Position numbers and translations under genes: made by a program. From assembly GCA_051362555.1 (NCBI GenBank), contig CM120640.1:46664788-46728787 (forward strand): a stretch of 64,000 nucleotides of DNA, written 5' to 3'. The notes beneath the pieces were generated by a model. It was given only the letters and a program-made list of their open reading frames with translations, searched no databases and was not told the origin of the DNA. The first letter of the stretch is position 1; each line of letters starts with the position of its first letter. Source of the DNA: Lingula anatina (lineage: Eukaryota > Animalia > Brachiopoda). Positions 323 through 59,575 of the stretch are shown piece by piece.

Positions 323-3300
323 ATGAATGGCCAAGTGGACACCGTAAACAAGGCTATAAGTTATAATGTCCAGGTAGTGACTGAGAAACTCAACAGGACT
401 ATGGGCTACACTCATCTCCCCCCCCCCCCCCCCTCCTTTCATCCCCTCCCTCCCTGGTCCACCTTATGAATTGGATTTGGTGACTAATTTTCTCTGCAGA
501 TTTTAACTAATGCCAGTGTGTACTGTAGACTTGTCACTTTCCTTCTGCATTACTGTTTATCTTTCTATAGTTCACCTGTATCTCAACATAGATGTAAAAG
601 GATTTTTTGTTGTTTGTTTATAAAAAAAGATATATCAAACATTCATTGCATATCTAAGGCAAGAGTATAAATGGCGCTGCTGATGGTGTGTATAGTATCT
701 TTTTGTCTATCTTAGTGCATATTATTAAAACGGGAAGGGTGGTTTCTTCAACCTATCATCATGTATAATTTGTAGCTGTAGCTGTGACGCACACAAACCA
801 GCAGCTGCTTGGAGAGAAACTGCTGCTTCTAGGTAGTATGGGTGTAAAATGCAATTCTGAAAAAAAGTGTATCTCAAAACTATTACCTCTGAAGTCAAAA
901 CAGGTCCCTCCCATACTTGCTGCTCCAGCAGCCACACTTCTTTGCTCAACATATTTCACTAGAAATTTTGAGCACTTTTTTTATTTCAGGGGATTAATTT
1001 GTTGATTTTATTTTACTTATTTTTGTTATGTGATTAGCTGTATGTGACTGAATTGAATACTATAGACAAAATGTACTTACAACATTTAAAATATCAGCAC
1101 CAGGTGAAAAAGATGTGTGCATGTTTTGCACCTACATGTACCTCATCACAGGGCAAAGACAGTGAATGACATATAAGTGCAGAAGCCACCTTCCTTAGTT
1201 TCATGGATGCATATAAATCAGATTGAAACATAATTTATTTAAAATTGAATGCAAGCTGTAGTCTAAAATTGACTTTGATGACAGGTGAAAAATATGTTTT
1301 TGAAAGTTTTCACCTTTGTAAGCTTTCTTCTTGTTACATGTATAAATGTTTCATTCGTTGATACTTTTCAACAAGATTGTCCCAACCATTTGTCATTGAT
1401 TCTTATGAGAACTTTAACTATTTCCTGTGACAACAGAATAATTTTTTTTTTCAAATTCTCATTGCAGTTTGCTGGTATTATACCCAATGTTCCAGTACAT
1501 CTTGATTCTACGAGCCGCACAGATATCCTCAGAGTGATAGATAGGGGAAAGGTAACTTTAATATTTATACATGTAAATAATTATAAATACAATCACTCTC
1601 AAGTATGATATGAAAATTTCTCTGTGTGTAATGCACATAGTGTTTTTAAATCTCAATGCATGAAGCCAAGAGTACAATCATTATAAAAAAAATACGGAAA
1701 GAATAACATTTAAATAGTAAAAGATGCTATGAATAGAATTTGATACGCTGCTCATCATCTTATAATGAAAAAAAAAAACGTTAGTCTGTCTACATTGCAG
1801 TTTCTTCTTGTCATTTATTCATATGCTTCAGTTGCATGTGCAGAAAAATAATGGCTTTGACATTTGGGGTGGAGTAAATGTTAACCCTAATTAGTCTCCA
1901 TCAGACAGAAGCTCGTGATTATAAATATTTCACTATCGTAGTACATGTACAACTGGGAGCTCCCGTTCTTTGTGAATAATGAACACTGACATATTTATCT
2001 TTTAGTTGGCAACTTAAGGATTGATAAGCATGCAGTATTCTTATTTGTCATTTGTAATGTAAGAATGCAGAATGGAGAGGAACTGTGTTAATTACAGTTG
2101 TTTATAAGATAAAAAAAACTTAAGTTTCAAAGAAATTGTTTTCTAAATTAGTTGATACATTTTCAGAAGGATGGTACAATCCCTTGGCACACAACTTACG
2201 AACAAGATGCCATCTTTAGCTTAAGCGTTAACAATATCAAAATCTCAAGGAGAGATGGAAATGAAGTAAGTCTGTCTTTACCTCTACTTTCTATTGAAAT
2301 TCAATCATAGGTCTTTATAAACTGTATGTCTTGTTGTTAGGTTAACTGTCTTCAGCAAATGAACAAGTAAGCCCAGTGAGCACAAACAGTATAATAGAGA
2401 TTGATGATGAAAAAATTAGCAGCGAACATTAAAATTTCAAAACACGTTTCACTTTATTCAGACTTTACAATTTCCTTTTAAAAGGCATATGATCAGGAAG
2501 TATTTCCTGTTTTGCTAAATCCCAAGAACACCCCTCCTTTACTTTTCTCCACAGGGTCTCAGTTAGAAATTTTGTTTAGTACTTGAAAAATTTTGAATTA
2601 TTTTGGTGCATTGGTACTTTAAAGTTTATCAACAGTTCTTTGAATTGGTAATGCTGATAAACATGCCCTTGAGAAATGTCAGGCTTGAATTGGATAAGCA
2701 ATAGAAATGTTTCAGCTGCTGTTTTACTGCCCATCCCTCCAGATAATGTAAAACAGTAGGAACAACACAGGACACCCACACTTTTAATGCAATTTATTCC
2801 TCTTTATATGATATGGACAATTTATGTCTAGAGTGATTAAAAAAAAAGAAAGAAGGAAAAAAATCTTGTAGGTTAATTAAAATGGATTTATGTATTTTTT
2901 TTTCTATATGCTAAATGTCAGTTCTCCTTGTAAGAGTATTTTAAATCTAGCTTCCTTTCAAAATTGCCATAAAATGTCAAAAGTGACCGCTTTTTTTTTT
3001 GACAGATGTCAGTATAATCAATTAACTTGTTGATAAAATTCTAAAATGAAACACAATAGGGTTTGTACATATTGACAATACCTGAGTGTCTTTGTTATGC
3101 CCATTTGTTGTACTTGTTACAGCAATAACTGGGAAGCAATTTTCTTGATATTTAAAGTGAGATAGGTTGTCTGTACATTGTACAGTTTCAGCTGTCTTGT
3201 TGAACAATTAGATGGGTTGTTTACTCCTCTCATGAGGTTGGTTAAGGTCTCTTTCTCCCTGCATCTTTTATTATTCCAATTCATGACCTCTTGTTCTTTA

Positions 3301-6300
3301 GGATAGAAAGTCAATGTTTAACTCCCATGCCAGTGGCGATGGAACACTCAAAAGGAATATTAGGTTATCAACCTGTCAAAAAATCATTGTATAGAAAACA
3401 TTCAAAATTTGCATATTTTACTTTTACATTTGTTAGAAATGAAAACTGCAGCCTTCTTTGTTATTTTTGCCTTTGTTGCTTTACATACAGGATTTATTTG
3501 TTAGATTTATAACTTTATAATGAGCCTAGACTATTTTATTTCTTGACTAGACGGGGTTGTTTCATGATGAAAGAAATGTCCAGTAATCAGATCAGATACA
3601 AAGCTTTGCAAAATAACTGTCCGAGACTGAGATATTCTCAGATGTATTGATAAGACAAAGCAGAAAGCGTGTCATTATAATGCCATCTTGACTATATAAT
3701 GGCCCATGTGTGATGAAATAGTCATAAATGTTCCTCATTTGAGGGAGTTTTTGGTTTTATGAAACAAACATTAGTGAGAGATATGTCAGTGTCCTTTTTC
3801 TTCCAATCTACACACTTTGAAGTGAGAATAACAATGTTTTTTTTTTTTTTTTTTTCAAATAATAGGTCTTGGATGGTCATTTTCAACTTTAAGTTGGATA
3901 AAGATACTTCTGACTAAGGTTTAAGAATTTATATTTTACATGTTTACCAATATATGTATTAAATGTGTTCTTAAAATGATTAAACATTTAATTGTAGTAT
4001 TTTTGATGATTAAAAATCCACCATAATATGTGTTTATACTTAGGATGCCAAAAATGTTATCAGGCCAGATTTTGATATAGTAAAGGGAGAAAAACTAGCA
4101 ACTTTATTAATTGGAGTGGGTGTTTCAAGGGATAACAACTGTTCATTTTGGCCAAAAAACATATTTTCCTGGGGAGCCTCCGAGGGGTAAACGAGGATTT
4201 TCCCATACTAACCAATGGTTAATGAATCCATTCTGACATTCAAAGTTAGTCCATTTTTTTTTTCTAAAAAGTTTTGTTTTTTTGTAATAATCTCTTCAGA
4301 GATATCTTTTAAGAGATTATTACAGAGGTATGGTTATCTACATGTAAGAAGGTCCATTTGGTCTGATGGCAAGCACAGATTCAAGAACTATTGCACTAAC
4401 TGCTGTTTTGTGATCTTTCTGTAAGACTTTGTTCATCATTTTTAGGAGCTGATGTTACGGGTACCCATTCATGAAATAGCTACAATTTGTTACATACAAG
4501 ATGATGCATCTTTTATCTTAATTTTGAAATTTGGTAAGTGCCTTTAATTATATTTGCATAAGAGCATAAGAGAGATTATTAATTGTATATTAAGTAGAGT
4601 TCATTAACTTTTAACTCCTATTAAGTTGTTATTAACATTTGGAAGAGTACTAAAAATGTGTATATTGATGATATGATCTTTTTCCAATAATGGGATATTT
4701 TAATCATCCAATTAGGGAATCCTGAAGAGAGTCGAGAAATGTGCAAGTTGGCAGTTTTCCTTTGTGATAGCAGAGTAAGTAAAATGTTAGACACTGTCTG
4801 ATATTAAATACCAAGTATCATCATATCGTGATATACAGTAGATTCCGTAACTTGATGATTTATACAATTTGTAAAGAACCATTCAGTGATTCTGTTGAAT
4901 CATAAAATTTCTTTTTTTTTTTTATCAAATTTGAATCATTACTTACTTTCAAATATCTTTTTTGTGTGAATGAATGAGCATCCGTAGTTCTTTCTACACT
5001 TAAGATTTGAGTAAAACATTTCATGGTCTTCTTAGAGTTTGCATAGTACTCCGAAGCAAACGGATCTAATTGTTTTGACAGAAATGTTGGGTACAAGCAT
5101 AGAGATGAAATTGCTCTCTGTATTGTTCAAAACTTGTTCTTGTGACTGCACAAATGGGTTATTTCGGAAATAACTTGATGACTGCACAAAATGTGCCATG
5201 ACCCTGCAAGTGCAACAGTCAGATCTGAAGTGCATTTCAAGGTGGGAATTCAGCTTCATTTTATCAGTAGGAGTTGTTCTGATTATGCATCCTCAGGTGT
5301 GAATGAAAAAAATGAATCAGAAACTGGATAACAATTCTACTCCAGTAAAATGGACAAATCCATCACACTGAACATCCATGCTTATTCATACTCAGGTGCT
5401 GTGAATGAAAAAGAAGAAGCAAAAAAAAAAAAATTCATTCTATAGAACTCCACGACAATACTGCAAAAACCATATCACCATTGATAAAAAAATTTAGAAG
5501 ATCTATTTTAGTTATGATGTTCTCAGTGATCTAAGTGTTGCTATTAATGTTATCTCTTGTAGATTAAATCTACCTCATTCTGCCTATATAATAGGGATTT
5601 ACTAGGATTGGTGCATTAAATACATGGGTGGGCTGACAGTGAAGCAGACATTTCTGTTGGGTGTTGCCTCCTTTTGCATACAATTATTGGATAAATAGGT
5701 ATTGTGAAGATGCATTGCTGTTTGGACCAGGGAGATTTATGAGGGCATTGCTGGAATGTGGTCAACTTGTTTTTAGTATGATTTGAGGGTCAAAGGTCAA
5801 CATTAGGGAGGGGTGTTCTTGTCAATAGGTCATTAAGGGAAAGTGAAGGTCTTTGGTGCTGCTAGCAAATACACTTGATGGAAGACCTGAATCCTGTAGA
5901 CAAATACTGAGGATGGCATTTGAAAGAGAATTAAGCTCTGCAGCAAGCTGTACCCTCTTTATTTTCAGAATATTATTTTTAAGGAAAAACAGAGAAAAAT
6001 AAATACGGGAGGGGAGTTAAAGAGGTAAAACATTCAAAAGGTCAACGTTCAATAATTGAAAATCCCTGGTGTTGGATGGAGTTGTGTTTTATAAAATAAA
6101 AAATAGGGGATGTATAGGAAATAGTTCCAAATTTTCTGTTTGTAAAAGACATACAGGAATAATAAAAAGAAAATTGGATTTGAAACATAGAGCTTTACTT
6201 TGAATGAGGAATTTCATTTTAAGTTTAGGGATGTGTATCAAGGGGAAAAAATTTGGCAATGTTAGGGCAATAGCAGTATTGACTTTTGCAGGTGCATACC

Positions 6301-6804
6301 AGCTACAAGAGATGAATGAAGAAGAAATTTCATGAAAGGGGAAACTTGCAACAGAGGATACAAAGCACACTTATTTATTTGATTTGCCATATTTTCTTCC
6401 TGTTTCAGCTTTTGAAAAGTTTTGTTTAGGGTATGCAGAAAAGCTTTCCTGGTGGTTTTTAAATGCTTTGAACACCTTTGCAATGTATATTAAAGTCCTA
6501 ATGTCATCATGGGATTGATGCGCAAATGTCCAATGTCAATTTCAATTCTTTCTGGTCCTTTGCCCCTGTAATGCACCACCCTAGTTAATTTCCTGTATTA
6601 GTTGATTACTTATGACAGCAGAACAATATCTCTTATGATGTGGAACTGTTAACGGAAACATTACATCATGAATTAAGTTACGAAGATTTTATAGATTTAT
6701 GAGGGAGAACCTATGGTTCAATGTGGGTGGGATCCATGAATGAAATTGAGAGAAATGTTTAAATATGGTTTAAGACATTTTGCCCCCTCCACACCAAAAA
6801 ACAA

Positions 6805-6844
<40 letters not shown>

Positions 6845-9774
6845 TTAAGCAAACTAATACAATCATGATGTTCAATTTTTTTGTTGACCATGGTACTACT
6901 TTATAAGCTGTCTTTGACAAAATGATATAAGCCATAAAGATTTAAAACATATTTTGTTGCAGTCTGCCTCTGAGGAGTTGTGTTCACTGGTTGGACAGTG
7001 TTTCCAGTTGGTGTACACAGATGCCACCATGCAGTTCTTTGATAGGAAAGTCAATGAAGGAGCACGCGGGGTGTCTGGTACATCCTCTGTTACCCTAAGC
7101 AGTGGTGAGTTAGATAAAGCATTGTATGTTTGTAGTTGTATTGTTTGTTGGGAATTTGAAATATTTTTGTTGATAATATAATATAATATAATATAATATA
7201 ATATAATATAATTGGCATGCAGGGATTCTAGACGACAATTTTAAATAATGTGTTAAAAGATGTGAAAATTTTTTAACATTTTTAGGATGCTTAGGTGTAT
7301 ACATCACTCACTACTTCTGTGATAATTTTTTTCAGATTATTCCACATCTACACCTAAGAACCTGGACAAATTACAGGATCCTTCATTGTAAGTTATTAAT
7401 TTAACTTATTACATGTTCATGTAAGGAGGCTTAGAACCATTCTTGAAATTGATCTTTTTAATATTCCCTGAAATTTTAAGTGTTTGCTTTAAGACATAAT
7501 CAAAGTCAAAATTTGCCTCTCTGCTTTCAATAACTTAGTCCCCTTGCAGAACAAAATTGAAGAGCACTTCTCACACTGGTTTAATTCATTGAATATATAA
7601 GACATATTTTCACTTTTGTTTTGTGATGTTTTCAGTTTGTCTCAGTCAGCACTCCACCTAGATCATAGTCAGACATCAACATTAAACAGACCAGCTCACA
7701 GGCGGAAAAGAAGCACTACGCAGAGCGTCAGTGACCTTAGCACCTCGGCAGCAGATCTGTTGCATGATTATATTAGAAAGGTAAAATTAATGCATTTATA
7801 ACTTGTTGAGATTGGTCATGATGAAAGAAAGCAAATTTTCTCTGTTTGATAATCAGAAGTGGCAAAATGAGGGTAAACTCAATGTATTGCACTTCTCTCT
7901 CAAAATGTGTAAAACAAAATGATCATTGCCAATCGCTTTTGCAAGATTATATAGATAGAATACTGATAAGATGGGAATTAGTGATGTTTTAAGATTGACA
8001 ACTATTTGTAAATTGCTTCAAGTGGTAGCAATGCTTGTTTTGGTGTCATTTGAGGTGAAATTGGGAGTTTGCTTTATCCCCACTTTCAGGTGACTTGCTA
8101 ATTTGTCACTGGTTAAGAATTGCATTTAAAAAAGTTTGCGGTGTGTGCCAGAACACATCCTTGCCATTAACCTTACTGGGGACATTAAATAGTTGTGGTT
8201 ATGAGTGGCTTGTCATCAACCAGTATTTGAGGGGTATTTACTGGTTAAGATTTATACATGAAAACATATTTAATATATACAGTGTAAATAGATTCATGAG
8301 CTGTGTAGTTGGATCATCCAAGAAAGGTACACAATATCCATAGATAATTTTTCCTAAAAATACTTTTGCAGGATTTTATGAATAATGTTAGCTCTTTTAC
8401 AGAATTTATGAAGTTAAAAGAGAAATATGAAAGAGTGGTAGAAAATAAATATATCATACTTGTTATTTTGGTTCCAGATGCAGAGAGTTTTAACTGATGA
8501 TGAATTAAAAAGGTTTGCCTCTTTGTGTAAAATGTGGCAAGAAAATATGCCTTTTAATGAATATTGCCAGAGGGTGCTGGAGCTTTATGGACAGGAGAGA
8601 AAATATCTTTTAGCAGGTAATTCTTTTCCGAAACTTTACTTCCATAATTACGTTATTTCTTACACCCCATTTCCATAGAATTTTCGATCGATCTATCCCT
8701 GTGGGGAGTCTCACTAGATTACTGTCAGCTTGGCCGGCTTAAGCGTCTGTCCCGCCTACTAAAAGCTGTAAGGGGGTAATTAACTATGGTGCCCGCTCGG
8801 CTGACTGCAATTTAGTGTGAACCCCCAGGGAGTTAGGTCGATCTAAAACTTAATCTTTAGATCTATCTAAATCTCTGGGAAAGCACCCTTATTAAATAGC
8901 TGTCAAATATCTGTGGTATAAATTAACAGGATAACATGTATCATTTATATGGTGGACTCGGAACCATGATGTATGAGATAAATACTTTATACATCTAGGA
9001 GAGCAATCAATATTAAAGTTATTATGTAAAGTTATTATGTAAAATTATCATTTTTTGTATGTTTTTTTTTTTTACCATTTCAGATATGAGGGATTTTATA
9101 CCTGAAAAAGACTATGAATTTTTTGAGTCATTCTTGAAAAGTATAGGCATTGTAAATAATGGAAGAGGAAGTCAAAGATCAAGATACAGGTACCCAAAAC
9201 CATTCGATACCTCATTCATTTTAAGAATTGACAAATGAAAAATATAAGGTTACCTTTAATGGATAACTTAACATGCTGAAATCAATTGTGTAAAAAAGAT
9301 TGGGAATACTTAAAAGGAGGAATGAAAAGAACTGGGTGGTGAAATTTGAACATGTTTCCTGGTCTGTCTTTTGGCTGCTTGTGCAGTGCTACAAAGGGGC
9401 AAATGAGAACAGTATTCCATGCATGAGCATGATAATAATTAATGAAAATAAGTGGGATGTCTTCCATGATATCTATATGACTACTAAGCATTAATGATTT
9501 TTTTCTATCATAGTAAAGTTTACACATGTGAATGTTGGTAAAATAATATGATTTTTATTATAATTCATTGAAAATTAAATTTGGACTTGTACTTTTTTCC
9601 AGACGGACAGCGAGCGATGTATCTGGTTTAACAACAGGAAGTGCTAGTGACACTACATCTTTAGCTGCAGATGAGTTTGATCGCAGCATGAACATAATTA
9701 CCTCAAGTATTGCCAATATGGAAACAAGTGTGAACATTAATCCCAGCTCATATCTTGGAATGCAGCAAACGTGA
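323..9774 (+). CDS. CCM2: Cerebral cavernous malformations 2 protein (malcavernin): PTB domain, LD-like motif, harmonin-homology domain; ~378 aa, 11 coding exons
   Basis: Exons 323-373 (tentative first: gccATG, in-frame stop upstream), 1468-1551, 2167-2265, 4446-4533, 4716-4774, 6963-7104, 7336-7387, 7636-7780, 8478-8616, 9084-9189, 9603-9774; all GT-AG, 1137 nt in frame. Peptides [72 protein letters not shown] and DEFDR match recalled human CCM2 ([60 protein letters not shown], DEWDR). Confidence 0.93.
4127..4330 (+). mobile_element. Partial copy of the ~330-bp TTAA-flanked MITE family (other copies at 23053 and 46446)
   Basis: Starts AAGGGATAACAA and shares TTTTGGCCAAAAA...TTTTCCCATACT.ACCA.TGGTTAATGAATCCATT with the other copies; no right TIR seen. 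Confidence 0.65.
5600..6588. mobile_element. Possible decayed ~1-kb DNA transposon in a CCM2 intron
   Basis: Imperfect inverted ends TTACTAGGATTGGTGCATTA and TAATGCACCACCCTAGTTAA; no TSD or coding remnant recognised. Confidence 0.3.
6806..6845. repeat. (ATT)n microsatellite
   Basis: Direct reading. Confidence 0.95.
7173..7212. repeat. (ATAAT)n microsatellite
   Basis: Direct reading. Confidence 0.95.
8661..8888. mobile_element. Degenerate foldback MITE in a CCM2 intron
   Basis: Arm GATCGATCTATCCCTGTGGGGAGTCTCACTAGATTACTGTCAGC is an imperfect reverse complement of GCTGACTGCAATTTAGTGTGAACCCCCAGGGAGTTAGGTCGATC; GC-richer than its flanks. Confidence 0.6.
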
Positions 9775-12700
9775 TATATGTTGTGAGGGACACATGCTGA
9801 ATGTGTACCTTTAGGATCCGACTCAATGGTGTCATCTTTGTTGTTGTAAAGATCTGATCTGGTGCTAGTTCATCATCAGCTAGTGACATCAGCCTGTTTG
9901 ACTACATATGTTTAGCAGTACTGTACCCTTAGTGTCAAAGGGTGATTGGATGTAGAGGATTTCACAAACCCTGGGATTTTAAAGCTCAATAATAGGACAC
10001 AAAGTTGTGGATATGAACTTTCGTGGGGTGCACTTGACACCATGGGCTTCACAAGGTGACAAAGTCCATTAAATGGAAACACGAAGAAAATATACAGGAC
10101 CCTGCAACTCTTTCACACAGTTTGGCACTAAGCGTCCTTTTAACATCATCCACATTGATACTCGGCATTGATTCAACAATTGATAGGATGTGATGGACAA
10201 AGGGCAAGATACCACATTGTGTTACTCAGTGAAGGGTGGGTTTAGGTTTAAAAAACTGTGATAACATGAACTAAAAATTTGCATCTGTACAGTGGTGTCA
10301 GGTGTCTTGTGCTGGAAAATAAGGTAAAGGTTCTTATGGCTTGAATATGATGCTGTTTATTTGCCAGACAAATGATATAAGTGATAGGGAATCATTTTAG
10401 AAATATCAAGCCATTACAACAAACAAAATACATTGGATAGAAAATCCCAATGCTGCTGCTGAAATAGCAGCATTATTGATTTTTAAACGGTGTTATCACC
10501 CTGTTTTAAAATATTAGGTATGTTTATGTAGTGAAATTTAGGATTTAATGTTGGATTTTGATTTTTTTTAAATCCTCAGAGGGTTAGTTTTATATAAGAG
10601 GACAAGGGAACTTTGGGATTAGTCGACTTGAGGACCATAAACCATTGTAATATAACTGCTGTAAGTCTGAGGGATATTGTACAGGTACTTTCAGTAATGT
10701 CTGTGAAGAAAATCTCTATGTTTTGTCAGGATTTAATGATGATAGTCTGATTGTGCAGGTGTGTATGTCTATTTATGTAGCAAATGTTTATCACTCGTGT
10801 GTTTTGTTTTCTGGTATAGTTCCACTTGCCTTTCACAATGTGATCTCTCTCGGTAATTTTTTAGTTCAGTGATTGAGCAGTATTTTGGTGCTAGGTAGAA
10901 CTACAAATTGCTGAGATCCATTAGGAAAATGGTTTTGCCACTGTAAAAAAAGCTACACTGCACTTTAGGACCTTTTCTGTAAGGGGTCAAAGCATGGGTG
11001 TGTTTAAAAATTCTCAGGTGTCATGATGGCCCTTGCTTTTCATTCAAGTGATTGATAACAAACAGCAATGGCAACAGGCCGGTAATCAAAATTGAAAACT
11101 AAGAAATTACCCTGAAATAACAGAGATGGCTTTTCACTCAATTAAGGTTATTGATACTGCTGGGTCCACCCAAGTTAATTGTGACAAGCAAGGGACCCAG
11201 CCTTAAGTAATGAAAGTTAATAACCCATGAAGGGGGCATCTCATAGATGCTATGAGCTGGTTAAAATGGTGATTGAGTTCCTGCAAACTTTTTATTTTTG
11301 GTAAAGCTAAAAGAAAAAAATTGAGGACAAAACTGGTCATGAACTGGGGAAAAATCAAAACCTTTTGGCTTTTTGTCAAAATGAATTAATTTACGCTATT
11401 GGGGAATAATTTACCAGGGTCAGGAAAGGATCCTCTAGGGTAACACATGCACTGTCATTTCCTACCATCAGGCATATAATGGGCGTATTCTAGTCCCAAG
11501 TCACTGCAGCATTGTCTCATTTTCAATACATCTGTCATAATAATAATATCTGCTTTAGGGGATGTTTGTCATTGCACGGATTTTAACTACTATTATTTAA
11601 AAGGACTGCTGGAGGAGATCTGATTTTTTTAAATATCGTAGTCACATCAGTTTCAATGTATCTGTTGTGTTTTTTTATTTATTTTCTTGAATTATATGAT
11701 AATTTCAGCATAAAGATATTTGCTGATGTTTCACTCAAGTAATTTATTGTTGTACATTTTTAGTAAATAAATTGTACATAGGTTTATTGCAATATGTTGG
11801 AAAATTGTATTATAGGTTTGTTTTATATGGGAGGTGTGACGTAAAAAGGTTGAATAATTAATCAAGATGTGTTCATTTGTGAGGGATCATCACTTTCTCA
11901 GTATTACTATGTAATAATGGGTAAAACAATCCTGACTTTGTGCAAATATAAAGCAAACACTTCCAGTCTGAAGTGAAAGTGTGTGCATTCAAGTTGACTG
12001 ACATCATTGCTTATCGTGTTATTTTAGGTAATGCTCATGTCACCTTCATTTTTAGAATATTGAATTATGTTGTAGAATATTCAACTGAGCATCCTGTGAA
12101 TGGAATAAAATTGCTTGATTTTTTTTTTCAATTTGTTGGCATTCAGTTTTTATTTCAAAATTAGCTCAGTCAAGAAATTGTTTACTGACATAATTGTCTG
12201 AAGATGAAAAATAAAATTGTACCCAAAATTCTTTACAGAAAGGACTTTCAATCACCATCAGATTCAGATTGCGTGATTTGCAGTGCAAATGTTTTAATGT
12301 AATCCTGAAAGTTAAAATTTGGGATTTGTGATAAAGTCTCATATTGAAAAATACTAACGATAAAATATCAGATGAAATGCTTTGATTTATTTGCAAGAGC
12401 ACCCAGAGAACCATTTCTACATTTCTGTTTGGTTCAATATAAACTGTTACGTCTACCAAAACCATTAAATGTATCTCCAATTTAAATTGCTTTGAAGAGT
12501 ATAAGATAATCACAATACAAAGGCAAAATGTTATGGAGCATTTGGGACTTTCAGATATAACTGTGTTTCAGTCTAATTTTGTTTTGAATACTGTATACTC
12601 CCAATTAGCTAAAGCTGAATGTCCACAAGACCATGAAAGTAAGAAGCGCACCTTATGCCTATTCTGAATATTTTACCCTCAATGTCATATACACATTTTA

Positions 12701-13317
12701 ACTTTGAAACGGTCCACCTCTACCACCTCACACTGTAAAGTACATTAACTGCTGCAGTTAAGTTCTAGGCATCTTCCAGCAAGGGTGCACCTGTTGACCC
12801 CATAATGATACCTTCGACACACCCAGGGCTGACAATTAAAAACGCATAAATTCATGATTTACATTAACAAGTGGAGCATGGGTTTAGAAATTATACACAG
12901 ACATGATGTGTATGAAAAAATACACAGAGGTGCATAGGAAGCAGATACACCTGTACATAAATATATTAACTGACCATTCAAACAGTATATGTCCCATCTT
13001 ACAGGTGTGCATAATTTGTCACACTGTTATAAAGCTCAGTTCCCCTTTCCTTTCAATTTTGATTTGCAAATACATGCTTTTTGACATGTCGGCTAAATCA
13101 CCGCAAACACTGGGTGAACACTAAACAACTCTCTTCAAGTACCACTTCTAAACATTACCTCACAGCAAAAAGCTTCTACAGTAAGTTTACACAGAAAAAT
13201 TGTTTTCTGGAATGAATAGTGCCTGAGGTTACTTGGCAAACCATACAAGAGGTCTGCAGGCACACCTAGGATTCCTCCCATGTTCTAGTACATGTAAGTT
13301 GTCCTTGCATCTTTTCC

Positions 13318-16300
13318 TCATGATCTCTGCATTAATGCTTGGAACATATTACTCAAACTCAGACAGATCTTCTGGGACTGTTCCTATGGAAAAAATGATA
13401 TAAATGTATTCATTTCACTTTATCTTGATACTAAAAGGAAATAAAAGATCCACTTGTTTTACCATTCAGGATTTGACTCATCGGTAAATAACAAAGGGAA
13501 AGTCATTCAATGTTTTCTCTTAATCGGAAAATGCATCTTTAACATTTCCTTCTTTTTGCCAAGGAAAAATCATTTGGTAATTCATTCATGCATTCATTAA
13601 TTTTCAGACCTAATAGTAACTGCATGCATTACAGCACTAGTTCTTTATTTAGATGATGAGGATATCGCTGCATAATACCAGCCTTGTAGTAATCGCATTC
13701 AACATTTCAGGTCATCTTTCAACAGTGTTCTAAATGCCAAAATGCCACACACAGTCAGAGATGTCAAATCACCAAGCAGTGAACATTATTTCTGGGTGGT
13801 GACTAGCATTCAGACAAATGCCAAATAGTGCAATATCTGAGGTGCATATAAGCCTACTTCAACATTAAACAATTAAGGAAACAAGCCATCAATTATCTAA
13901 GGCTTCATTCACATGCAATGTCTATTTTCTAAATTCTATTTTCTATTCGCGGTATGTCTTATGATCACGGTCTGTGCCCTGAATATCCCGCGGCGTAATT
14001 ACTGGCAGTGCGAGCCAGTTACTATAAGTTACTATAAGTAACTGGCTCGCGCTGCCAGTAATTACGCGGCGGGATATTCAGGGCACAGACCGTGATCATA
14101 AGATAGCGCGAATAGAAAATAGAATTTAGAAAATAGACATTGCATGTGAATGAAGCCTAAGACACCGTTTTGGAAAGGCAAACGGTTTTAAATTGTAAGT
14201 GTATAAGATGATAATCAAGTTGCTAGAGACATAGGCCCCATTTGTATAGACATCATTGGCCTATGTAGATTGAACCAACTCTGTAGGGATTCTTGCTAAG
14301 TGCAATCAGCTTAATTGAAGGACACCCCTCTTCTTGTTTTCAAAATACTCATATAATCACCAGCTTTTCTGTATTCTACTCAAGATGAAGTGTATCATTC
14401 AGTTAAGCTGATCACACTCAGCCAGAGTCCCCACAGAGTTGAAATGATCTATGTAAACAGATGGTGTCTGTGGGAATGGGGTCATAGTGCTAAGGCTCTA
14501 GCAAATATTTCATAAAATTCTCAATTTAATTCATGAAAGATATATATTGGATAACATTTTGCAAAAAATGTCATAAATGTGTAGCAAATATGAATTTTGT
14601 TGAAAACAGAGGTTTCGCCTGTAATTTTAATAATTTTCCTTGCTCATGTGCACATACTTCATTCTGACACTGGAACACGTGGCAGCTGTACGTGGTCTTG
14701 CCAACTTGTCCCGTCTTCACTGCAATGTTGTGTTTCCCTGCCCCATCACTAAAGGCCATCATTTGTGCCACTGTGTGGAGGGGGTGACGTTCAATTATTT
14801 CCTGAAATAATACAATGCATAATAGAAAGTCTAGTGCTTGTACCCCTCTACTGTATCATCGTAGGCCAAGAAAAAACTAATCCTTAAGATTATTTTATTT
14901 GACTAATGTAAAAGAAAAATATTTTGACTAGACACAAAAAGAAACTACTAAATCCAAAGCAATTTAGCTTAGTTTCTAAATCATCCTACCATATCTGTAT
15001 CAGCATTTAATGTATCACCCATTTCTTTGGACAGAAATATAAATTTCAGTTTCATTAAATCTTACAAAGAAAAGCCTTGCACCTATTCATAGTCAGAGGA
15101 CAATAAAGCTTTCTCAAAGAGCAAGGATATGACACCTGACATTAATAGTTTTCTATAGAAATAACTACAGAGACATTCAAATTATGATTTCTTTTACTTT
15201 CCCTAAAATACAAAAAAATCAGACCTATTTTACCAGAATTTCATTTAAATGCTTACATTTACCAATGAAATATTTTTATGAAATAATTTTCAATACAAAA
15301 TAATTTCCCAGGCAGAGAAAATCATTTTTCTACTTTATAAGACCCATTTGATTTTTTTAACCATATTGATCAATAATTTCTTTTTAATAAATTCCCACAA
15401 TGTACATTGTGAAGAATTCATCTTGGCTTCTACTTTTACTAGTCCTGGTCCAGAGGTGTCATGTTTGTTCCTTAATATCATCATTCATCTCCATGACATT
15501 TTTCTAAGATATTTTTTACTTAAATCAATATGAGAATAAACTTGGAGTCATATAGCAGATTTTTATTTCAAAAAGATGAATCAACACAAATCCAATTTAT
15601 TGCCCTTTGCAATTTCAGTTTCTAGCCAAGTGAAGTGCATGCTTGAGAAAATTGCACTGCTCCAAAAGTCCAGAACATTTCACATGGTTTGTCAACAATT
15701 TTGAGGTCAAATTTTAGGTGGAGCTGCAAAATCTACATAGACCCTGACACTAACTATAATCACCAATGTCTGACAAAAAACCCTGCTCCAACTGCAATAG
15801 GGGAGATACAGGTGAAACCAAAATTTCGTAAACTTTACACAAACTTTCACTGCAATCAGCATGTAAAATGTCCAATATATATAATTTGTCTCACCTTTAT
15901 CATTATTTATTCATTAATTTTTAGATTTCATTTCCTGATTTTGGATTGCAAATTGGAAAAAAATCCTCAAACAAACTCTGAATATTTGTTTAATTCAAAA
16001 TATCTTTCAAAAGTTGTCACGGAAATAAACTGAATATCAATATTAAATACACTAATAATAAAATTTTGTATGTGTAGTACAATGATCATAACTGTTATTG
16101 CAAAGGTTAATAAAATCTAAATTGGTGATTGCTTTTAGCTCTCTCTGTAGAGTAAAGCCCCACACTTAATACTCTGCCACTGGAAATCCTGGTATATATT
16201 AGTTTCAGAGCTCAGCCAATCAAATCTGGGTTACACCTACAGAAATGTTTTGAATGATTAACTTTCAGACTGATTACAAAGTCAGTAACAACAGTATAAA

Positions 16301-18974
16301 TTGACACCGCTAAATACAGCAGGCACTTTATCAGCTACAATGAGGAAGTAGAAGTGACAACTGTTATCTAAAGTAAAGGTTATGAAATATTGAAACATAC
16401 CCTTCACAGCAAATGCAAATTTATAAATTACCTTTAATCCAGGGCAGGTACTTCAACAGTAATACATTTGTGTCTACTAATTTTCCTACTTATGTACTAC
16501 CTAACTATGCATTTTTTCATAAATTTACTATACTTTTCATTTCTTCTATAATACTGTGTTCTGAGGACATTCTAGGAGGGGCATCCCACGTTTAGTATTT
16601 TTAACCAACATTAACCCAGACATCTGTGCCCTATCAAAACTCTTCAAATTTTACATCACACCATGCTGTTTTACTGCTGTCCATAACACTCCATACATCA
16701 CTTGAACTGTACAGACTTTGACTTTGATAAACATCCTTAGTGAAACACCCATGCATGGAATTATAACAAAACATTTTTTCACATAAACTGCACAACAAAA
16801 AAAAATTAAAAAATTAAAAAATTTAGAAAAAAAAAAAAAAAAAACCTTACCTCTCTCCTTGACAGCCTTATGCCATGTTTTGATATCAAAATGGTAACTA
16901 TGTCATCCTCCTTAGGTAAAAAAGGTAACTTTCCCTGAATCTGAAATCAGATTTTGATACTTTATTCTACTACTGTGATTTCAAATTATTTCAGATCTCA
17001 AATAAACCACTCACAGCTGAATAAGCAAACTATAATACAGCATTCAATAATTTTACAACTTTTAAAGTGCTACAGACAGGAGTTAGTTAAAATTTTTGTT
17101 GGACTGGAGCAAGATAAAATCATAACAAAAACCTTGCAAAACATTTAATATCATTACAGTGTACTGCGCTTAAAGTTTTTTTAAAATTACACTTAGGTAA
17201 ATACAGTCATAAGTTGCAAATGTTTTTATTTTGCATGCTAAATCCCCCCCCCCCCTTCTTTTCAAACTTATTCATCCACAGAACTCTTTTGTCCATTCAA
17301 TTTCTTCCTGTTTACTCTAAGCAAGTTAAGATGAGAAAAACTGCTCATTTCATTTCTCTTTTACTAGTAAGTGCTTCTTTCACACAAGGGTATGAAAATG
17401 CTCAATGGAGGAGAAATTTATCATGGTGCAGTGAAATCCTGTGTAGTGGTCCTTAAAATTAGCCCTACACAGGATTTCACTGCGCCATCATCATGATATA
17501 ATTTCCCTAAAAAAATTGTAAGATGGTGTGGAGCAATGAACAGTGCAAAAGAAATAATCCAATCAATTTACCACATTAAAGTTGCCTAATTGCCAAATAT
17601 AGCAATAAATTAAATTTCTTATGGAAATTTGAGGGCAGGATAATTTTCCACCAATCTAACTAAAAATATATTCTCAGCATTAACTAGGAACAAGGAGACA
17701 TAATTTCCTTTTTTTTTGAAAAAGTGTTGATGTTGTTGCTGTTGTTTTTTACTCTGCCAGCAGGTCAGTGGCATTTATTATTTCAAACAGAATCTACAAC
17801 CTTATAATCCCACCTGTGCTTCTTCTATTTTGTCAACTAACTGGGTAGATGCAATCTTTTTGCTCCCTGTGACACTGCTAAAGCTTTGCAAACTTCCCAG
17901 GTAGTGAACATGGTACTGTGCAGCTTTGTTCAATATATTAGGCCCAGCCTCCAGTAACATCTCGCGGCTGCCAGATAGATTTTCACTTGATCCTAGAGAC
18001 TGAAAGATAATTTCACAGATATGTAGCATGTGGTCATCTGCTAAAATGAACCTGTATGCCTTAGGATGTTACAGTATGTATCAATACACAGTACTTTCTA
18101 ATTTGTAACATATTTCAACTTCTGTAAAAGTCAATTTATGCGTGCCCAACAATATTGTTCAAAGAATCTAAGACAAGATCTGTCCTTCTTAAAATGTTTT
18201 TCTTTACTGTGAGACATGCAGAGAAGAAAAGATACTGATAGATGTATGGAAATGATGTAACAGAGAAAAACATATGCTGTGGAGGAACCTATGTGATATT
18301 TGCAATGTTACACTTTGACTGATTCGTGTAAGAATTTTCAAGGCAACAACTTTGTTTAAGAAAAGTCTCTGGATGCTAATATAAAAAACTCAGACTAAAT
18401 AAACAAAATATTTAAAGTCAATCAAATCACAATCGAAAATGTTCAAAATGAACTTGATAAAATTGTCATATTCAGAACAAATGACATATAAAATTGAGAG
18501 AAACAAACTCTATTAACAATTCTTCAAACTTTACCCACAAACTTATTTCCTTTGAAATACAGGCTTTATCAGGCCATAAGTGCTTTCATAAAATTATTTT
18601 TATGGTGATGACTCGATCTTTTCAATGGGGATAATTGTGAATTTTACAAATTGGAAATTTTTTAAGTCCTAAATTCTCTAAATTAGAACATATTCCCATC
18701 AAGTGGTAGCAACAAAATTACAAGCAGACTATCCTATTGTTCTATTCTATACAACACAAATGCAATACAGAGATATCACTTTGAATGATTCCAAATTTAT
18801 ATATCTGCAAGATTGATAACTTTCCTCAATAAAAAATAGTCATTACTGTATATCTTACAAAACTAAATTGTGCATAAAACCATTTATCAAATATACATTT
18901 AGCATTGATTGGGTATAGAAACCAAATATTATGGACTTTCGGTCTAATTTGATGGTTAAATCATCTATATGCCA

Positions 18975-19010
<36 letters not shown>

Positions 19011-19399
19011 GTGTGTGTGTGCGTGTGGAGGGAGGGGGGGGGGGGGTAGAAATAAGCATACCAGTAAGTCCAGGAAAATGATAAATACTGACAAGGCAGC
19101 TACATGTAGCTTGGAACAGAGAGTAGTGCCAAAGAGGAAGCACACCAGTGGCAGTGCGAATTCAGAGCGATAGATGCAACTTACTTCACTGTTACTGCCA
19201 GTGTTGCTAGTACTGTACATGTACCGTACTATTCACTACAAGCACTACAATTTAATTAACAGCAGAAATGTGTCAATGTCACATTGTCAGTGTCACGGCT
19301 GAGAAACATTAAAACACTTACCTGTGAACCTTCTTTGCTATTAAGAGATTCCTTGCTTCCAAAATTGACATTTGTTTTAGACTTGGTTTTTCTAAACAT
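13318..19399 (-). CDS. ITGB1BP1: Integrin beta-1-binding protein 1 (ICAP1), PTB-domain adaptor; 187 aa, 5 coding exons
   Basis: Exons 19399-19322, 17999-17814, 16940-16851, 14801-14658, 13383-13318; all introns phase 0, GT-AG. MFRKTK..., EEAQIQGKLPFLP, ISKHGI, RHPLH, DGAGKHNIAVKT and FQCQNEEQSQKICLSLS match recalled human ICAP1 (MFRKGK, DVAQQDGKLPFVP, VSKYGI, RHALY, GAGKSLLALKT, YQCNSLEQAQAICKVLS). Confidence 0.93.
13901..14157. mobile_element. 257-bp near-perfect palindromic MITE with TAA target-site duplication (PIF/Harbinger/Tourist-like) in ICAP1 intron 4
   Basis: taa|GGCTTCATTCACATGCAATG...CATTGCATGTGAATGAAGCC|taa; arms of about 120 bp with few mismatches; a 3-bp TWA TSD is characteristic of Harbinger. 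Confidence 0.88.
17423..17488. other. 66-nt hairpin (24-bp stem) in ICAP1 intron 2
   Basis: ATGGTGCAGTGAAATCCTGTGTAG / CTACACAGGATTTCACTGCGCCAT, one mismatch, 18-nt loop. Confidence 0.8.
18979..19025. repeat. (CT)n then (GT)n compound microsatellite, followed by a G tract
   Basis: Direct reading. Confidence 0.9.
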
Positions 19400-19760
19400 A
19401 TCCTGGCACTACATTTTGTTGACCTGCCACAATTCATCGGCAGCTCATTTCCCCTTCGAGACCCCCTCCATTTTGATGCAACCCCTTCAGTCACATGACT
19501 AAAATATAGTAAAATGTCAAATCAGTTTGAAAAATAGTTTCATATTTAGTCATGGCGCGTCATATTATCCTTAAATTATCGTAGAATGTGTTTCATTACC
19601 TTATTTTACTCGTTGTAAAAATAATTTTGAACGAAGTATTTTTCCCATCATTCCCATAGACCGCCATGTTGGAAGAGATCTAAGTTCTGAGTAGACTTTT
19701 GTTGATTTCATTTGGCGGTTGTTTCCTTCTTTCTTTGTTGCCCTTTGCAAAGGTGCAAAC
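19400..19760. promoter_or_regulatory. Probable bidirectional promoter between ITGB1BP1 and TCEA
   Basis: Divergent ATGs separated by 361 bp; locally more CpG; YY1-type CCGCCATGTT at 19661-19670 and CATGGCG at 19551; no clear TATA box. Confidence 0.7.
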
Positions 19761-28407
<8,647 letters not shown>

Positions 28408-30498: not shown

Positions 30499-33400
30499 AT
30501 GGCCCAAGTAGTCAAGTCTGGATGGCTGAAGAGATTTAGTCGTAAGTACAACATTTTGTTGAAGTTTGCAGATTTTGTTTATGAAAATTTATTTGTCTTA
30601 TAAAGCCACAGCTGGATTTAATTTTTCTTCAGTTTATTGATAACGATAATTAATTCTTACAAGTAAGTAAACATCAGTAAAGTCAAGTGTGATATATTAG
30701 TTCATCATTAATAGTCAATACCTTTCTCTTATAATATCTTCTAACAAATGTCAAATATTGTGTGTATGGTTCTCTTATTCCAGGGAGTTTATTTAGTGGA
30801 GGATGGAAAAATGTATGGGTAGTACTACATAAAGACAGTGCTTTAGTATTTTACAATAACCAGGGTGATCATACACCAAAGGGAAGTGTTTATTTAAATG
30901 TAAGTACATTTTTGTCACTTTTCATGAACATTAATTGTTGTAGTGAAAATAAACATTTTTAGAGTTACCAGAAATCATCTGTTACCAGTAAGAAAGGATT
31001 TTTCAAGCCATTAGCAAGCACCTAGTACACTACATGAAACAAGATTTAGTTTCAATTATTTCACAATGTGGGTTTTTTATCATTTTAGAATGTATGCAAT
31101 TTCCTAGCTGTTGGTAACTATACCAGTGTCATACCAGACAGGCCAACAGGGGTACAGGTAGAATGCCTGATAGCAGTACCACAAGAACCAAGCAAAACAG
31201 CTAAAATCAATTGGTTTCTGTGTAATTCACAACAAGAAGTAAAGTAAGATTTTTCAGTGTCAACAGCCAGTGTGAAACATTTATGCAGATTTACAGTAGT
31301 AACCTAGTTAGTTTAATATCATTTGTTAAGAAGACCTAAGGCTTATAATTCGTATAGGTGAGGTCTGCTAACTTAAAGATGGGACTATTTGCATAAGACT
31401 GCAAATTAGCTTAACATTGCATCATCCCATTCTTTTTCATTTATGTGGCATATGTAGTCTGTTGATTTAAGTTACATCTGCCCAGTCTAAAATTGTTCTT
31501 GTCTGAGTGCAACTTTAAGAGCTTGCAAATATAAAACAACTAAAGGTTTTGAATAAAAAAAATGATGATATCCAAAATTGATGATATACAAGTTGAATAG
31601 TGGATTACATTTATTTAATGATTTTTGTAACTACTTTATTTCAGTGATTGGATGTCTGCAATTGTATCAACAGTAAGTACTTCAACACAGGTGTAATTTT
31701 CAAACCTTCACATCACCAATCTTTAGGGAACAAAATTTTATTGATACAGGTTTGACAGATATTGTGCCTATGGTGCTTTCAATATTTCATGTTACTACTT
31801 TCTTCAATTTAATGAGACTGAGGCTGCTTTCACATTTATTTAAAACAAGTGCAATTTTTCTTTAGTTTTTGGAGTGATATTCATAATAAGGTATCTTATC
31901 ATTATTGTGAAAAAAAATTACACCTCAGCTTTCATCACAACCCTGGTGAAAAAAGGCCCGTAGTGCATCATTGTTTCAGTCACCCGTCATTACAACCATA
32001 CCATATTTATACTTTGATTCACACCAGCACAGAAATTGTTCTTGACAAATGGCAAAATGTATAGGTCAAATCGATGCAGGATCACAGGCAAATGGTTAAA
32101 TTACATTTATTTATACAGCATAGGCTTTAAAACATGTCTTTGTGTCATATTTCCAGCTCCCACCACCACCACAACAGCAGCAGGCAACGGCTCCAAGTGC
32201 ACCTCCATTTACTGCTAGCCAGCCACCAGCCAGTGGAGCAGCTCCTCTAGGATTTGGAGCAGTAGCAGGTATAAGATTAGTTTAGATGAAGTTCAGGGTA
32301 CACATCTAAAATATCATTATATTGTTAGATATTTTTTACTCCATTAATATGATTTTTTTTTCAGTATGGAATGGTCTTTTGATGTAATAGCGCACATATG
32401 AATTTTAATTTAACTAAAATACGGATTGGTCAAATATGGTTTATAACTGTTTGCAGTCTTATCTTTTGCAAATTAAAATCATTAAAATACCTTTTCCATA
32501 TTATTTCAGTAATTTTGCACCTGTAACATTTTAATTGCTCGTTACCTCTAAACATATCCTTGTTTTTGGATATGCTACAAATTTACTGTTTTTTTTCCAT
32601 TACAGGGGCAGCAGCAGCAGGCTCAGCACCCCCACCATATCCACAACCATCACAACCATATCCCTCAGGACCCCCAGGGGGATACCCAGCACAACCTCCA
32701 GGGGGATACCCTCAACAACCCCCTGGGGCATATCCACAACAGCCCCCTGGGGGATACCCACAACAACCCCCTGGAGCATACCCAAGGCAACAACAACCAT
32801 ATCCACAGCAGCAAGGTTACCCTCAGCAGCAGTATTACCCACAGCAACAGCCTTACCCAGGACAGCCAGGTACTGTCTGAAACTCATTTCTTTTGATAAT
32901 TTTCTACAGTTAATGTTTCACATATTTTGATAGATGAACAAACTGTATTTTGTGATCTATCTGTCTCTATATCCTTCTTTTGAAAGATTAAAAAGCAATA
33001 TGCAGATCATGTTTAGTTTAAGTGTTGATGTAAGGTTTTTCACAAGGTGAGATATGAATGGCTGGTTTTAAATCAGATTTTTGCAAGTTTGTTTCTTGTC
33101 CAGGCTGCCATCGCCTCAATTTTTATTGCTCACTATTTAGGCAGTTCTGAATTGCAGAAGTCAGATATCACCCAAATGACAGTGCACACAAATGTTACTG
33201 TACAAAGAGACCAGTGTACATTATCTGATTGCATTTCTTGCGTGCATCTGGTCTTGGAATAAGGCATCTGTAAATAAAACTGCATATTAATTCAACAGGT
33301 CCCTCTGGGTATGCTCCACCTCCTGCAGGTTACCCCCAGCAGGCCTATGCTGGTGCCCCCCAGGGAGCATATGCTGGTCAACAACAAGTGTATAGAAAAA

Positions 33401-39790: not shown

Positions 39791-39905
39791 TCTCACAACA
39801 ATTCTTTTCTCAGTGATGAACTTCAAATAACTGTCTTCTAAAACTTGATCAGTTGCCTCTGTATATTCTTGAGTAGGTTATGACTACTATTGGCTCGCAG
39901 GTCTC

Positions 39906-46292: not shown

Positions 46293-46445
46293 TAGACTAC
46301 GGTAGAATTCCATGGTTCGATAGATTGTGGTTGCTATGTTGTCATGCTTAGTTGACGAATGCTGTCTATTTTGGTAAACTACAAAACACACACAGTAATG
46401 AACTACATCAAACACAAGCATGCTTTCCCAACTCTGTAAAATTAA

Positions 46446-49392: not shown

Positions 49393-49441
<49 letters not shown>

Positions 49442-59202: not shown

Positions 59203-59575
59203 AAAGTACAGTGAAACTCCTCTACATATTTGTGCATACTATTCGAGCATCCTTCGTGTGAATTTCTCAAAATATGGTATATCACCACTTCATGGAACAA
59301 ATGCTCTGATTTTTCTGACAAATCGACTTCATAGGATAAAATGCGACTTCATCTCCACATAAGATATTTCCTGCGACTTCATGGGATAATGGTGAAAAAG
59401 TACTTGTTATTGGCCCAACGTTATGAGAGTTAACGTTTTTGAAATATAATGTTTTTGTACTGTAAATATTATCCAACATAGGTAAACTGTACGTTTTTAT
59501 TTACTTGTATGACTGAATAGGTTTCTTTAGTGTATTGGGTGTAGGCCCTATGTTTTGACCAATTTTAAAATACAC

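What the first reader, a model, noticed from the sequence alone, without database searches (positions are those of the whole stretch)
323..19399. CCM2 and ICAP1, the two KRIT1-binding PTB proteins, are tail-to-tail neighbours sharing three intron positions
Established: CCM2 and ICAP1 each bind KRIT1 NPxY/F motifs through PTB domains in the CCM-integrin pathway, and they are on different human chromosomes. Seen: here the stops are 3.5 kb apart with no gene found between, and three phase-0 introns fall at equivalent PTB positions: IDRGK|KDGTIP vs IEEAQ|IQGKLP; SRRDGNE|ELMLRVPIH vs SRRE|EIIERHPLH; FLCDSR|SASEELC vs FQCQNE|EQSQKIC. Inference: the two genes may descend from one local inverted duplication retained as a functional mini-cluster. 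I do not know of a description of this linkage.
Basis: partly seen in the sequence, partly recalled or inferred. Interest (0 to 1): 0.82.

Follow-up and report, generated by a model that had tools for sequence, protein, structure and literature searches.

The report
Ancient linked CCM2–ICAP1 gene pair
The genes for two partners of the human brain-vessel disease protein KRIT1 sit end to end in this lamp-shell genome and in two other animals that are likely annelid worms, likely a relic of the very old gene duplication that made them, though nothing shows that staying together matters.

Summary
CCM2 (+) and ICAP1/ITGB1BP1 (-) are expressed, tail-to-tail genes 3,543 bp apart, identical to RefSeq Lingula anatina proteins; their 3' UTRs fill the gap. 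All three ICAP1 PTB introns match CCM2 introns at phase 0. New here: the same tail-to-tail pair occurs in 2 of 2 testable metagenome contigs, whose ICAP1 groups with annelids (brachiopod, mollusc and nemertean placements rejected), so the linkage crosses phyla. It appears broken in the snail Gigantopelta (same scaffold, far apart), probably in Capitella, and in humans. CCM2 and ICAP1 are each other's nearest PTB domain among solved structures, by sequence and by fold, but no outgroup tree could be built. The intron argument is weak: papers place NUMB and DAB1 introns at two of the three sites. Best reading: a relic of an ancient local duplication of one KRIT1-binding PTB adaptor (0.7). 'Functional mini-cluster' is unsupported.

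The parts
323..373 (+). CCM2 alternative first coding exon (RefSeq isoform X3 only); the main isoforms start upstream of the window
   Evidence: model equals P0042; joint to 1468 not listed in RNA, upstream exon seen instead
1468..1551 (+). CCM2 PTB exon (beta1 to alpha2); ends at shared intron 1, phase 0
2167..2265 (+). CCM2 PTB exon (beta2-beta3); ends at shared intron 2, phase 0
4446..4533 (+). CCM2 PTB exon (beta4-beta6); ends at a phase-1 intron absent from ICAP1
4716..4774 (+). CCM2 PTB exon (beta7); ends at shared intron 3, phase 0
6963..7104 (+). CCM2 exon for PTB helix alpha3
   Evidence: hit to malcavernin 4wj7, E 4e-4; joints
7336..7780 (+). CCM2 linker exons 7336-7387 and 7636-7780
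   Evidence: joints; model
8478..9189 (+). CCM2 harmonin-homology exons 8478-8616 and 9084-9189
   Evidence: Pfam CCM2_C 76.8 bits, cut-off 27.3; joints
9603..9774 (+). CCM2 last coding exon with TGA stop
9775..12110 (+). CCM2 3' UTR (end approximate; AATAAA at 11766, 12104, 12210)
   Evidence: stranded depth by bin; signals
12380..13317 (-). ICAP1 3' UTR (end approximate; minus-strand AATAAA at 12386)
   Evidence: stranded depth and read differences from 12477 on; signals
13318..13383 (-). ICAP1 last coding exon (helix alpha3, stop); follows shared intron 3
   Evidence: joint 13383|14658
14658..14801 (-). ICAP1 PTB exon (beta4-beta7), between shared introns 2 and 3
   Evidence: ICAP1 4dx9 E 1e-4; 100% to P0001
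16851..16940 (-). ICAP1 PTB exon (beta2-beta3), between shared introns 1 and 2
   Evidence: joint 16940|17814
17814..17999 (-). ICAP1 exon for the end of the N-terminal region, beta1 and alpha2
   Evidence: joint 17999|19322
19322..19399 (-). ICAP1 first coding exon (basic, Ser-rich N-terminus)

Best explanation
CCM2 and ICAP1 are two expressed, tail-to-tail genes whose adjacency is shared with two likely annelids, and they likely descend from one ancient local duplication (with inversion) of a PTB adaptor gene that likely already bound KRIT1-type NPxY/F motifs. Shown: gene structures, expression, adjacency in three animals, homology, matching introns, mutual nearest-relative status among solved PTB domains. 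Inferred: the duplication predates the bilaterian radiation (a CCM2-type protein is named from a sponge and from nematodes; C. elegans icap-1 appears in print); one copy kept or gained the harmonin-homology domain (CCM2), the other is a PTB-only integrin/KRIT1 binder (ICAP1); the pair has stayed together by slow rearrangement, perhaps helped by abutting 3' ends, and is free to separate, as in a snail and in humans. The proteins are predicted to work as in vertebrates, on different NPxY/F motifs of KRIT1; this was not tested here.
For: Linkage: L001 (stop gap 922 bp) and L005 (about 3.5 kb) carry ICAP1 tail-to-tail to CCM2, 2 of 2 loci with enough DNA, out of 8 found. They are different species (ICAP1 65% identical) and group with Capitella, Lamellibrachia and Paralvinella (SH-aLRT 97); AU tests reject placement with Lingula (p 1e-4), molluscs (0.004) and nemerteans (5e-4). 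A likely third case: a CCM2 exon ORF (P0022) and an annelid-like ICAP1 exon ORF (P0092) are both ENA records on 2 contigs with longest contig 7,261 bp. Kinship: ICAP1 to PDB, best other PTB is CCM2 (E 2.9e-4, next X11 0.013); CCM2 profile, best other is ICAP1 (6.5e-7, next GULP1 0.097); CCM2 scores better on Pfam ICAP-1 (6.9e-5) than on PID (0.0059); fold of the ICAP1 model: ICAP1 Z 19.9-20.8, CCM2 19.1-19.2 (rmsd 1.6-1.9, 124 aligned), next EPS8-like 16.7; CCM2 model: ICAP1 Z 16.2-16.9 (24% identity), next AIDA-1 15.4 (13%). Gigantopelta has both genes on one 102.9 Mb scaffold, as expected after local dispersal. A CCM2-type protein in the sponge Ephydatia and in nematodes. That mutual nearest paralogues would be neighbours by chance is unlikely, about 1e-4 genome-wide or a few 1e-3 within one linkage group (my rough estimate).
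Against: No tree with outgroup PTB families could be built, so sisterhood rests on nearest-hit ranks in the PDB, which lacks some families. With the ICAP1 profile, CCM2 leads GULP1 by only 1.3 bits (29.2 vs 27.9); 7 of 12 invertebrate CCM2s score above 27.9 and 5 below. The ESM Atlas rows shown for ICAP1 list EPS8-like and PID1-like clusters and no CCM2. Adjacency is shown only in two lophotrochozoan phyla, although the genes are older; no deuterostome, ecdysozoan or cnidarian locus was seen. Both linked contigs carry the same assembly prefix. Two of three shared introns are not diagnostic.
Confidence: 0.7

Rival explanations
1. The pair arose by local duplication and is held together by selection, for example by shared enhancers or coupled 3'-end processing that balance the two KRIT1 partners.
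For: Same orientation and a short gap (0.9-3.5 kb) in a brachiopod and two likely annelids; the 3' UTRs end within a few hundred bases of each other; in vertebrates ICAP1 draws KRIT1 to the nucleus and CCM2 to the cytoplasm, and loss of CCM2 lowers ICAP1 (PMC7729028, passages).
Against: Apparently separated in Gigantopelta (accessions 828 apart against 16-18 in Lingula), on different scaffolds in Capitella, and on different human chromosomes (CCM2 7p13 in PMC8005105; ITGB1BP1 2p25 recalled). Tail-to-tail genes share no promoter. Gap sequences share only 26-27 bp matches at different places, none common to all three. ICAP1 reads are about ten times deeper than CCM2 in stranded runs and about three times in the others (a weak measure).
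Confidence: 0.14
2. The genes are old relatives that were brought together secondarily by a rearrangement in a lophotrochozoan ancestor and then inherited as ordinary microsynteny.
For: Adjacency is seen only in Brachiopoda and Annelida; the gene families are older than that; at least two of the introns are general PTB features.
Against: A chance meeting of exactly the two mutual nearest PTB genes is improbable (rough estimate 1e-4 to a few 1e-3).
Confidence: 0.11
3. CCM2 and ICAP1 are not sisters; they are survivors of a larger ancient PTB gene array or look alike through binding the same KRIT1 partner.
For: Narrow margin over GULP1 in one search; shared introns also in NUMB and DAB1.
Against: Mutual first rank in three sequence searches, Pfam and two fold searches, with 24% against 18% or less identity for the next-ranked families; similarity spans the whole domain (hhalign 97.9%, 138 columns).
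Confidence: 0.05

Closest known systems
Human ICAP1 / ITGB1BP1 (PDB 4dx8, 4dx9, 4jif; Pfam PF10480)
   Same: About 190 aa, basic Ser-rich N-terminus plus one PTB domain; E 2e-21 to the solved domain; Pfam 84.3 bits. Human intron positions match the three here (recalled).
   Different: Human gene is unlinked to CCM2 (2p25, recalled). Ile139 of the human peptide groove (recalled as a binding residue) aligns with Ala130 here.
Human CCM2 / malcavernin (PDB 4wj7, 9pvg, 4fqn; Pfam PF16545)
   Same: PTB plus harmonin-homology domain; Z 22.8, 44% identity over the PTB; residue equivalent to Phe217 kept (Phe190).
   Different: Lacks the long beta6-beta7 insert of the human PTB. The human gene has 10 coding exons at 7p13 (PMC8005105) and, as I recall its exon sizes, has lost shared intron 2.
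Ancient conserved microsyntenic gene pairs (Irimia et al. 2012, PMC3514665; Luo et al. 2015, PMC4595640)
   Same: Two genes adjacent in the same orientation across phyla.
   Different: Those pairs are mostly unrelated genes tied by shared promoters or bystander enhancers (recalled); this pair is paralogous, convergent and lost in several lineages. The Irimia lists could not be seen; the one Lingula supplement held has no CCM2 or ITGB1BP1 entry.
Dab-like PTB genes NUMB and DAB1
   Same: Introns at the end of helix alpha2 (NUMB) and before strand beta4 (NUMB, DAB1).
   Different: More distant in fold (Z 12-15) and 9-16% identical. Their intron before helix alpha3 lies two codons later than in CCM2 and ICAP1 (recalled), whereas ANKS1A and NOS1AP have it at the CCM2/ICAP1 position (recalled).

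Membership tests
ICAP1 / ITGB1BP1 | Pfam PF10480 above the curated cut-off; ICAP1 is the best solved relative | tested here: met
   84.3 bits against 25; 4dx8 E 2.3e-21; Z 20.8
ICAP1 / ITGB1BP1 | Short protein: basic, Ser-rich N-terminus plus one C-terminal PTB domain | tested here: met
   187 aa; disordered residues 1-40, PTB 53-186
ICAP1 / ITGB1BP1 | Binds integrin beta1 tail and the first KRIT1 NPxY motif | not testable with these tools
   No KRIT1 or integrin sequence of this animal was in hand
CCM2 / malcavernin | N-terminal PTB plus C-terminal harmonin-homology domain | tested here: met
   PF16545 76.8 bits against 27.3; 4wj7 E 1.5e-49 and 4ykc 9e-37 for the profile
CCM2 / malcavernin | Binds KRIT1 NPxF2/3, CCM3 (LD-like motif) and MEKK3 | not testable with these tools
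   Only residue conservation seen (Phe190 equivalent to Phe217)
Conserved cross-phylum microsyntenic pair | Orthologues adjacent in the same orientation in two or more phyla | tested here: met
   Window plus L001 and L005, placed with annelids
Conserved cross-phylum microsyntenic pair | Adjacency reaches the bilaterian or metazoan ancestor | not testable with these tools
   No deuterostome, ecdysozoan or cnidarian locus was reachable; supplement searches gave no entry
Tandem-duplicate sister paralogues | Homologous over the whole shared domain | tested here: met
   hhalign 97.9%, E 3.6e-13, 138 columns
Tandem-duplicate sister paralogues | Form one clade against all other PTB families | tested here: inconclusive
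   Mutual nearest hits, but no outgroup tree; one margin is 1.3 bits
Tandem-duplicate sister paralogues | Share introns that other PTB families lack | tested here: not met
   Two of three sites also carry introns in NUMB or DAB1; the third was not checked by any search
Co-regulated cluster (bidirectional pair or genomic regulatory block) | Shared promoter (head-to-head) | tested here: not met
   Genes are tail-to-tail; ICAP1 is head-to-head with a TFIIS gene instead
Co-regulated cluster (bidirectional pair or genomic regulatory block) | Conserved non-coding elements between or within the genes | tested here: inconclusive
   Only 26-27 bp matches, none shared by all three gaps; distances are too deep for blastn to exclude elements; introns not compared
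Co-regulated cluster (bidirectional pair or genomic regulatory block) | Co-expression across tissues or cell types | not tested
   Seven RNA runs were laid at 6-30% depth without tissue labels, too few for a correlation

The most novel reading that the evidence does not exclude
The pair is the original duplication site of the KRIT1 adaptor module, kept since the first animals, and is held together because the abutting convergent 3' ends couple CCM2 and ICAP1 output and so set the balance between cytoplasmic and nuclear or integrin-releasing KRIT1; vertebrates lost this coupling.
Probability: 0.12. Interest if true: 0.75.

Novelty: new member of a known kind. Interest (0 to 1): 0.5.

Why it matters
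It gives a testable origin for part of the cerebral cavernous malformation pathway: CCM2 and ICAP1, treated as separate KRIT1 partners, would be one duplicated adaptor that split the NPxY/F motifs of KRIT1 between its copies. That predicts an ancestral PTB able to bind several motifs and points to swap and ancestral-state binding tests on these ordinary adaptor domains. The kind of thing (old paralogues still adjacent in slowly rearranging genomes) is well known, and no function of the linkage is shown, so the interest is moderate.

Tried and rejected
Literature: six searches for a description of the linkage or of a common origin listed no paper with both gene names and synteny or duplication terms; the library lacks most subscription journals. 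Supplements: none held for Irimia 2012; no hit in 1 file of Luo 2015, 3 files of an amphioxus atlas (one picture PDF unsearched) or 2 files of a Nematostella atlas. The supplements of a coral atlas, the CCM2-KRIT1 structure paper and the text of the C. elegans CCM paper were not seen; unseen microsynteny tables could already list the pair. A PTB structural survey (PMC4985636, passages) does not mention either gene. A search for LDLRAP1 splice variants gave nothing usable. NOS1AP (PMC10763988, passages) shows a symmetrical PTB exon 3 and a phase-2 intron at c.344|345, but not the position of the third intron. Scans of prokaryote genomes and viral contigs found no relative. A search with the single ICAP1 protein found only itself; an alignment with exons of L001 and L005 found 60 proteins. 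No RNA holder was listed by index; same-species raw runs were laid instead. No whole genome is held for this window, so KRIT1, other PTB genes and the upstream CCM2 exons could not be read. TFIIS exons gave no hit in the 8 loci, but only about 3 kb beyond ICAP1 exon 2 is held, so this says nothing. The scan's earlier notes held nothing relevant. Rejected: an assembly artefact (RNA joints, RefSeq match, same arrangement in other animals); a hidden gene in the gap (UTR coverage, longest ORF 99 aa); introns as proof of sisterhood. No complex prediction was sent, as no direct CCM2-ICAP1 binding is claimed.
Full report
Observation. The 12 quoted peptides lie at the stated places beside canonical splice sites. 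Exon models built by coordinates translate exactly to two RefSeq proteins named from the brachiopod Lingula anatina: CCM2 isoform X3 and ITGB1BP1. The stops are 3,543 bp apart. RNA reads from seven runs of three studies list 9 of 10 CCM2 introns and 3 of 4 ICAP1 introns; the ICAP1 joint 14801|16851 is not among the 15 of 58 rows shown. In the two stranded runs, + strand RNA covers the gap to about 12.0 kb and - strand RNA starts near 12.4 kb, so the gap consists of the two 3' UTRs, which nearly touch; overlap is not resolved. One correction: the start at 323 is a minor isoform; reads join exon 1468 to an exon outside the window.

Identity. ICAP1: Pfam PF10480 84.3 bits, PDB 4dx8 E 2e-21. CCM2: PTB plus CCM2_C 76.8 bits, 4wj7 E 1.5e-49. 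That both bind KRIT1 through their PTB domains in vertebrates (ICAP1 the first motif, CCM2 the second or third), can form a ternary complex and pull KRIT1 to different compartments is from PMC7729028 and PMC8005105 (passages). A KRI-1/CCM-2 complex in C. elegans is from the listing and abstract start of PMC6470173, where 'icap-1' occurs 6 times. Binding was not tested here.

Introns. On the profile-profile alignment all three ICAP1 PTB introns fall on the same columns as three of five CCM2 PTB introns, all phase 0; chance is about 1e-6. On the predicted structure they lie at the end of helix alpha2, between strands beta3 and beta4, and at the start of helix alpha3. The same positions occur in the ICAP1 genes of L001 and L005 and the CCM2 genes of L002 and L005. 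They are homologous, but not diagnostic. NUMB exon 3 is an 11-residue extension of helix alpha2 (PMC11889595, passages) and NUMB exons 5-6 code beta4 to alpha3 (PMC6778778, section 10 and part of the text). DAB1 has a phase-0 intron before Ala103 (c.307-2A>T, p.Ala103_Gln105del, in a beta-sheet of the PTB; PMC7830234, passages); that Ala103 corresponds to ICAP1 Glu119 is consistent with the aligned ranges (end offset 22 to Dab1 and six fewer residues in Dab2) but was not seen residue by residue. For the third intron I recall that Numb, Dab, GULP, X11 and ARH have it two codons later, while ANKS1A and NOS1AP have it at this position; no call checked this.

Kinship. ICAP1 and CCM2 are each other's best non-self PTB hit in the PDB with a single sequence, a CCM2 profile and an ICAP1 profile (by only 1.3 bits over GULP1). 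CCM2 scores better on the ICAP-1 Pfam model than on the general PID model. In fold comparison the ICAP1 model gives ICAP1 Z 19.9-20.8, CCM2 19.1-19.2, next 16.7; the CCM2 model gives ICAP1 16.2-16.9, next 15.4. The ESM Atlas rows shown for ICAP1 did not include CCM2. No sequences of other PTB families could be fetched, so there is no tree; sisterhood is likely, not shown.

Linkage elsewhere. A metagenome scan with the harmonin-homology exon gave 8 loci from 37 pattern matches. Two are intronless transcript-like contigs (L003, L004) and four hold only 252-806 bp beyond the last CCM2 match. The two that could be tested, L001 and L005, both carry a spliced ICAP1 gene tail-to-tail, with stop gaps of 922 bp and about 3.5 kb. 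Their ICAP1 proteins are 65% identical to each other and group with Capitella, Lamellibrachia and Paralvinella (87/83 in a 33-row tree; SH-aLRT 97 in a tree of 15 named rows plus the two loci; the unnamed rows and six named molluscs of the first tree were left out of the second). AU tests reject grouping with Lingula, molluscs or nemerteans. A CCM2 exon ORF and an ICAP1 exon ORF share source, contig count and a longest contig of 7,261 bp, a likely third case; it is 1 match among 10 CCM2 exon clusters and 19 ICAP1 exon rows, and non-matches are uninformative. Against: in Gigantopelta both genes are on a scaffold of 102,884,749 bp but their accessions are 828 apart, against 16-18 for the adjacent pair here; accession distance is only a proxy. 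In Capitella they are on scaffolds of 61,779 and 1,120,146 bp, which suggests separation but could be fragmentation. In humans CCM2 is at 7p13 and ITGB1BP1 at 2p25 (recalled).

How it most likely arose and works. Shown: two expressed convergent paralogues, adjacent in a brachiopod and two likely annelids. Inferred: adjacency in their common ancestor (Cambrian or earlier, recalled dating). Inferred further: because the two are mutual nearest PTB relatives, adjacency most simply records the duplication itself, which must be older than bilaterians since CCM2-type proteins are named from a sponge, nematodes and a priapulid. The pair then persisted where rearrangement was slow and broke elsewhere. 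I put this at 0.7; selection-maintained coupling at 0.14; secondary joining at 0.11; non-sister survivors or convergence at 0.05. Nothing supports co-regulation: no shared promoter, no shared element in the gap, and losses in several lineages.

Novelty. Six searches found no paper describing the linkage or a common origin, and four supplement look-ups found no entry or no files; large microsynteny tables that I could not see may list the pair without comment. The scan's earlier notes held nothing on it. It is a new instance of a known kind, an ancient linked paralogue pair, of real interest for the origin of the CCM complex. Interest 0.5.

Noticed in passing
window 19399-19761: ICAP1 is head-to-head with a TFIIS/TCEA gene (Pfam TFIIS_M); the start codons are about 360 bp apart and read ends cluster at 19465-19775, suggesting a bidirectional promoter. 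Human TCEA paralogues, CCM2L and ITGB1BP1 lie in regions I recall as paralogous (8q11, 20q11-13, 1p36, 2p25).
   Followed up: partly
P0041 (other scaffold, 86,641 bp): A second ICAP1-like RefSeq model of this species is identical up to shared intron 3 and then diverges; likely an allelic or truncated assembly copy.
   Followed up: no
window 13896-14162: Near-perfect hairpin element (arms 67 and 60 nt, 97% complementary) in the last ICAP1 intron; related copies are expressed elsewhere. MITE-like.
   Followed up: no
window 8660-8860: Repeat in a CCM2 intron with very deep RNA coverage on both strands and strand-switch joints; a transcribed dispersed element.
   Followed up: no
window 24054-27656: Tandem repeat of about 1,353 bp period, two near-identical copies and a decayed third.
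   Followed up: no
window 44016-46311 and 57360-59220: Two copies of a 2-kb element about 13.2 kb apart, 78-93% alike, flanking the hexosaminidase gene region.
   Followed up: no
window 30735-33950 (+), 37000-39900 (-), 48600-52500 (-): Other genes: a PH-domain protein with a Pro/Gln/Tyr-rich tail, an FN3 cytokine-receptor-like gene, and a glycosyl hydrolase family 20 gene.
   Followed up: partly
P0065, P0109, P0071: Short ICAP1 isoforms of Gigantopelta and Aplysia resume just before the first PTB strand motif, implying a molluscan intron about two codons from the CCM2 intron at R66|F67.
   Followed up: no
L001 4060-4203, L005 14121-14264: A short acidic-aromatic loop signature in ICAP1 separates pleistoannelids from Owenia, molluscs, nemerteans and Lingula; usable as a taxon marker.
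   Followed up: yes
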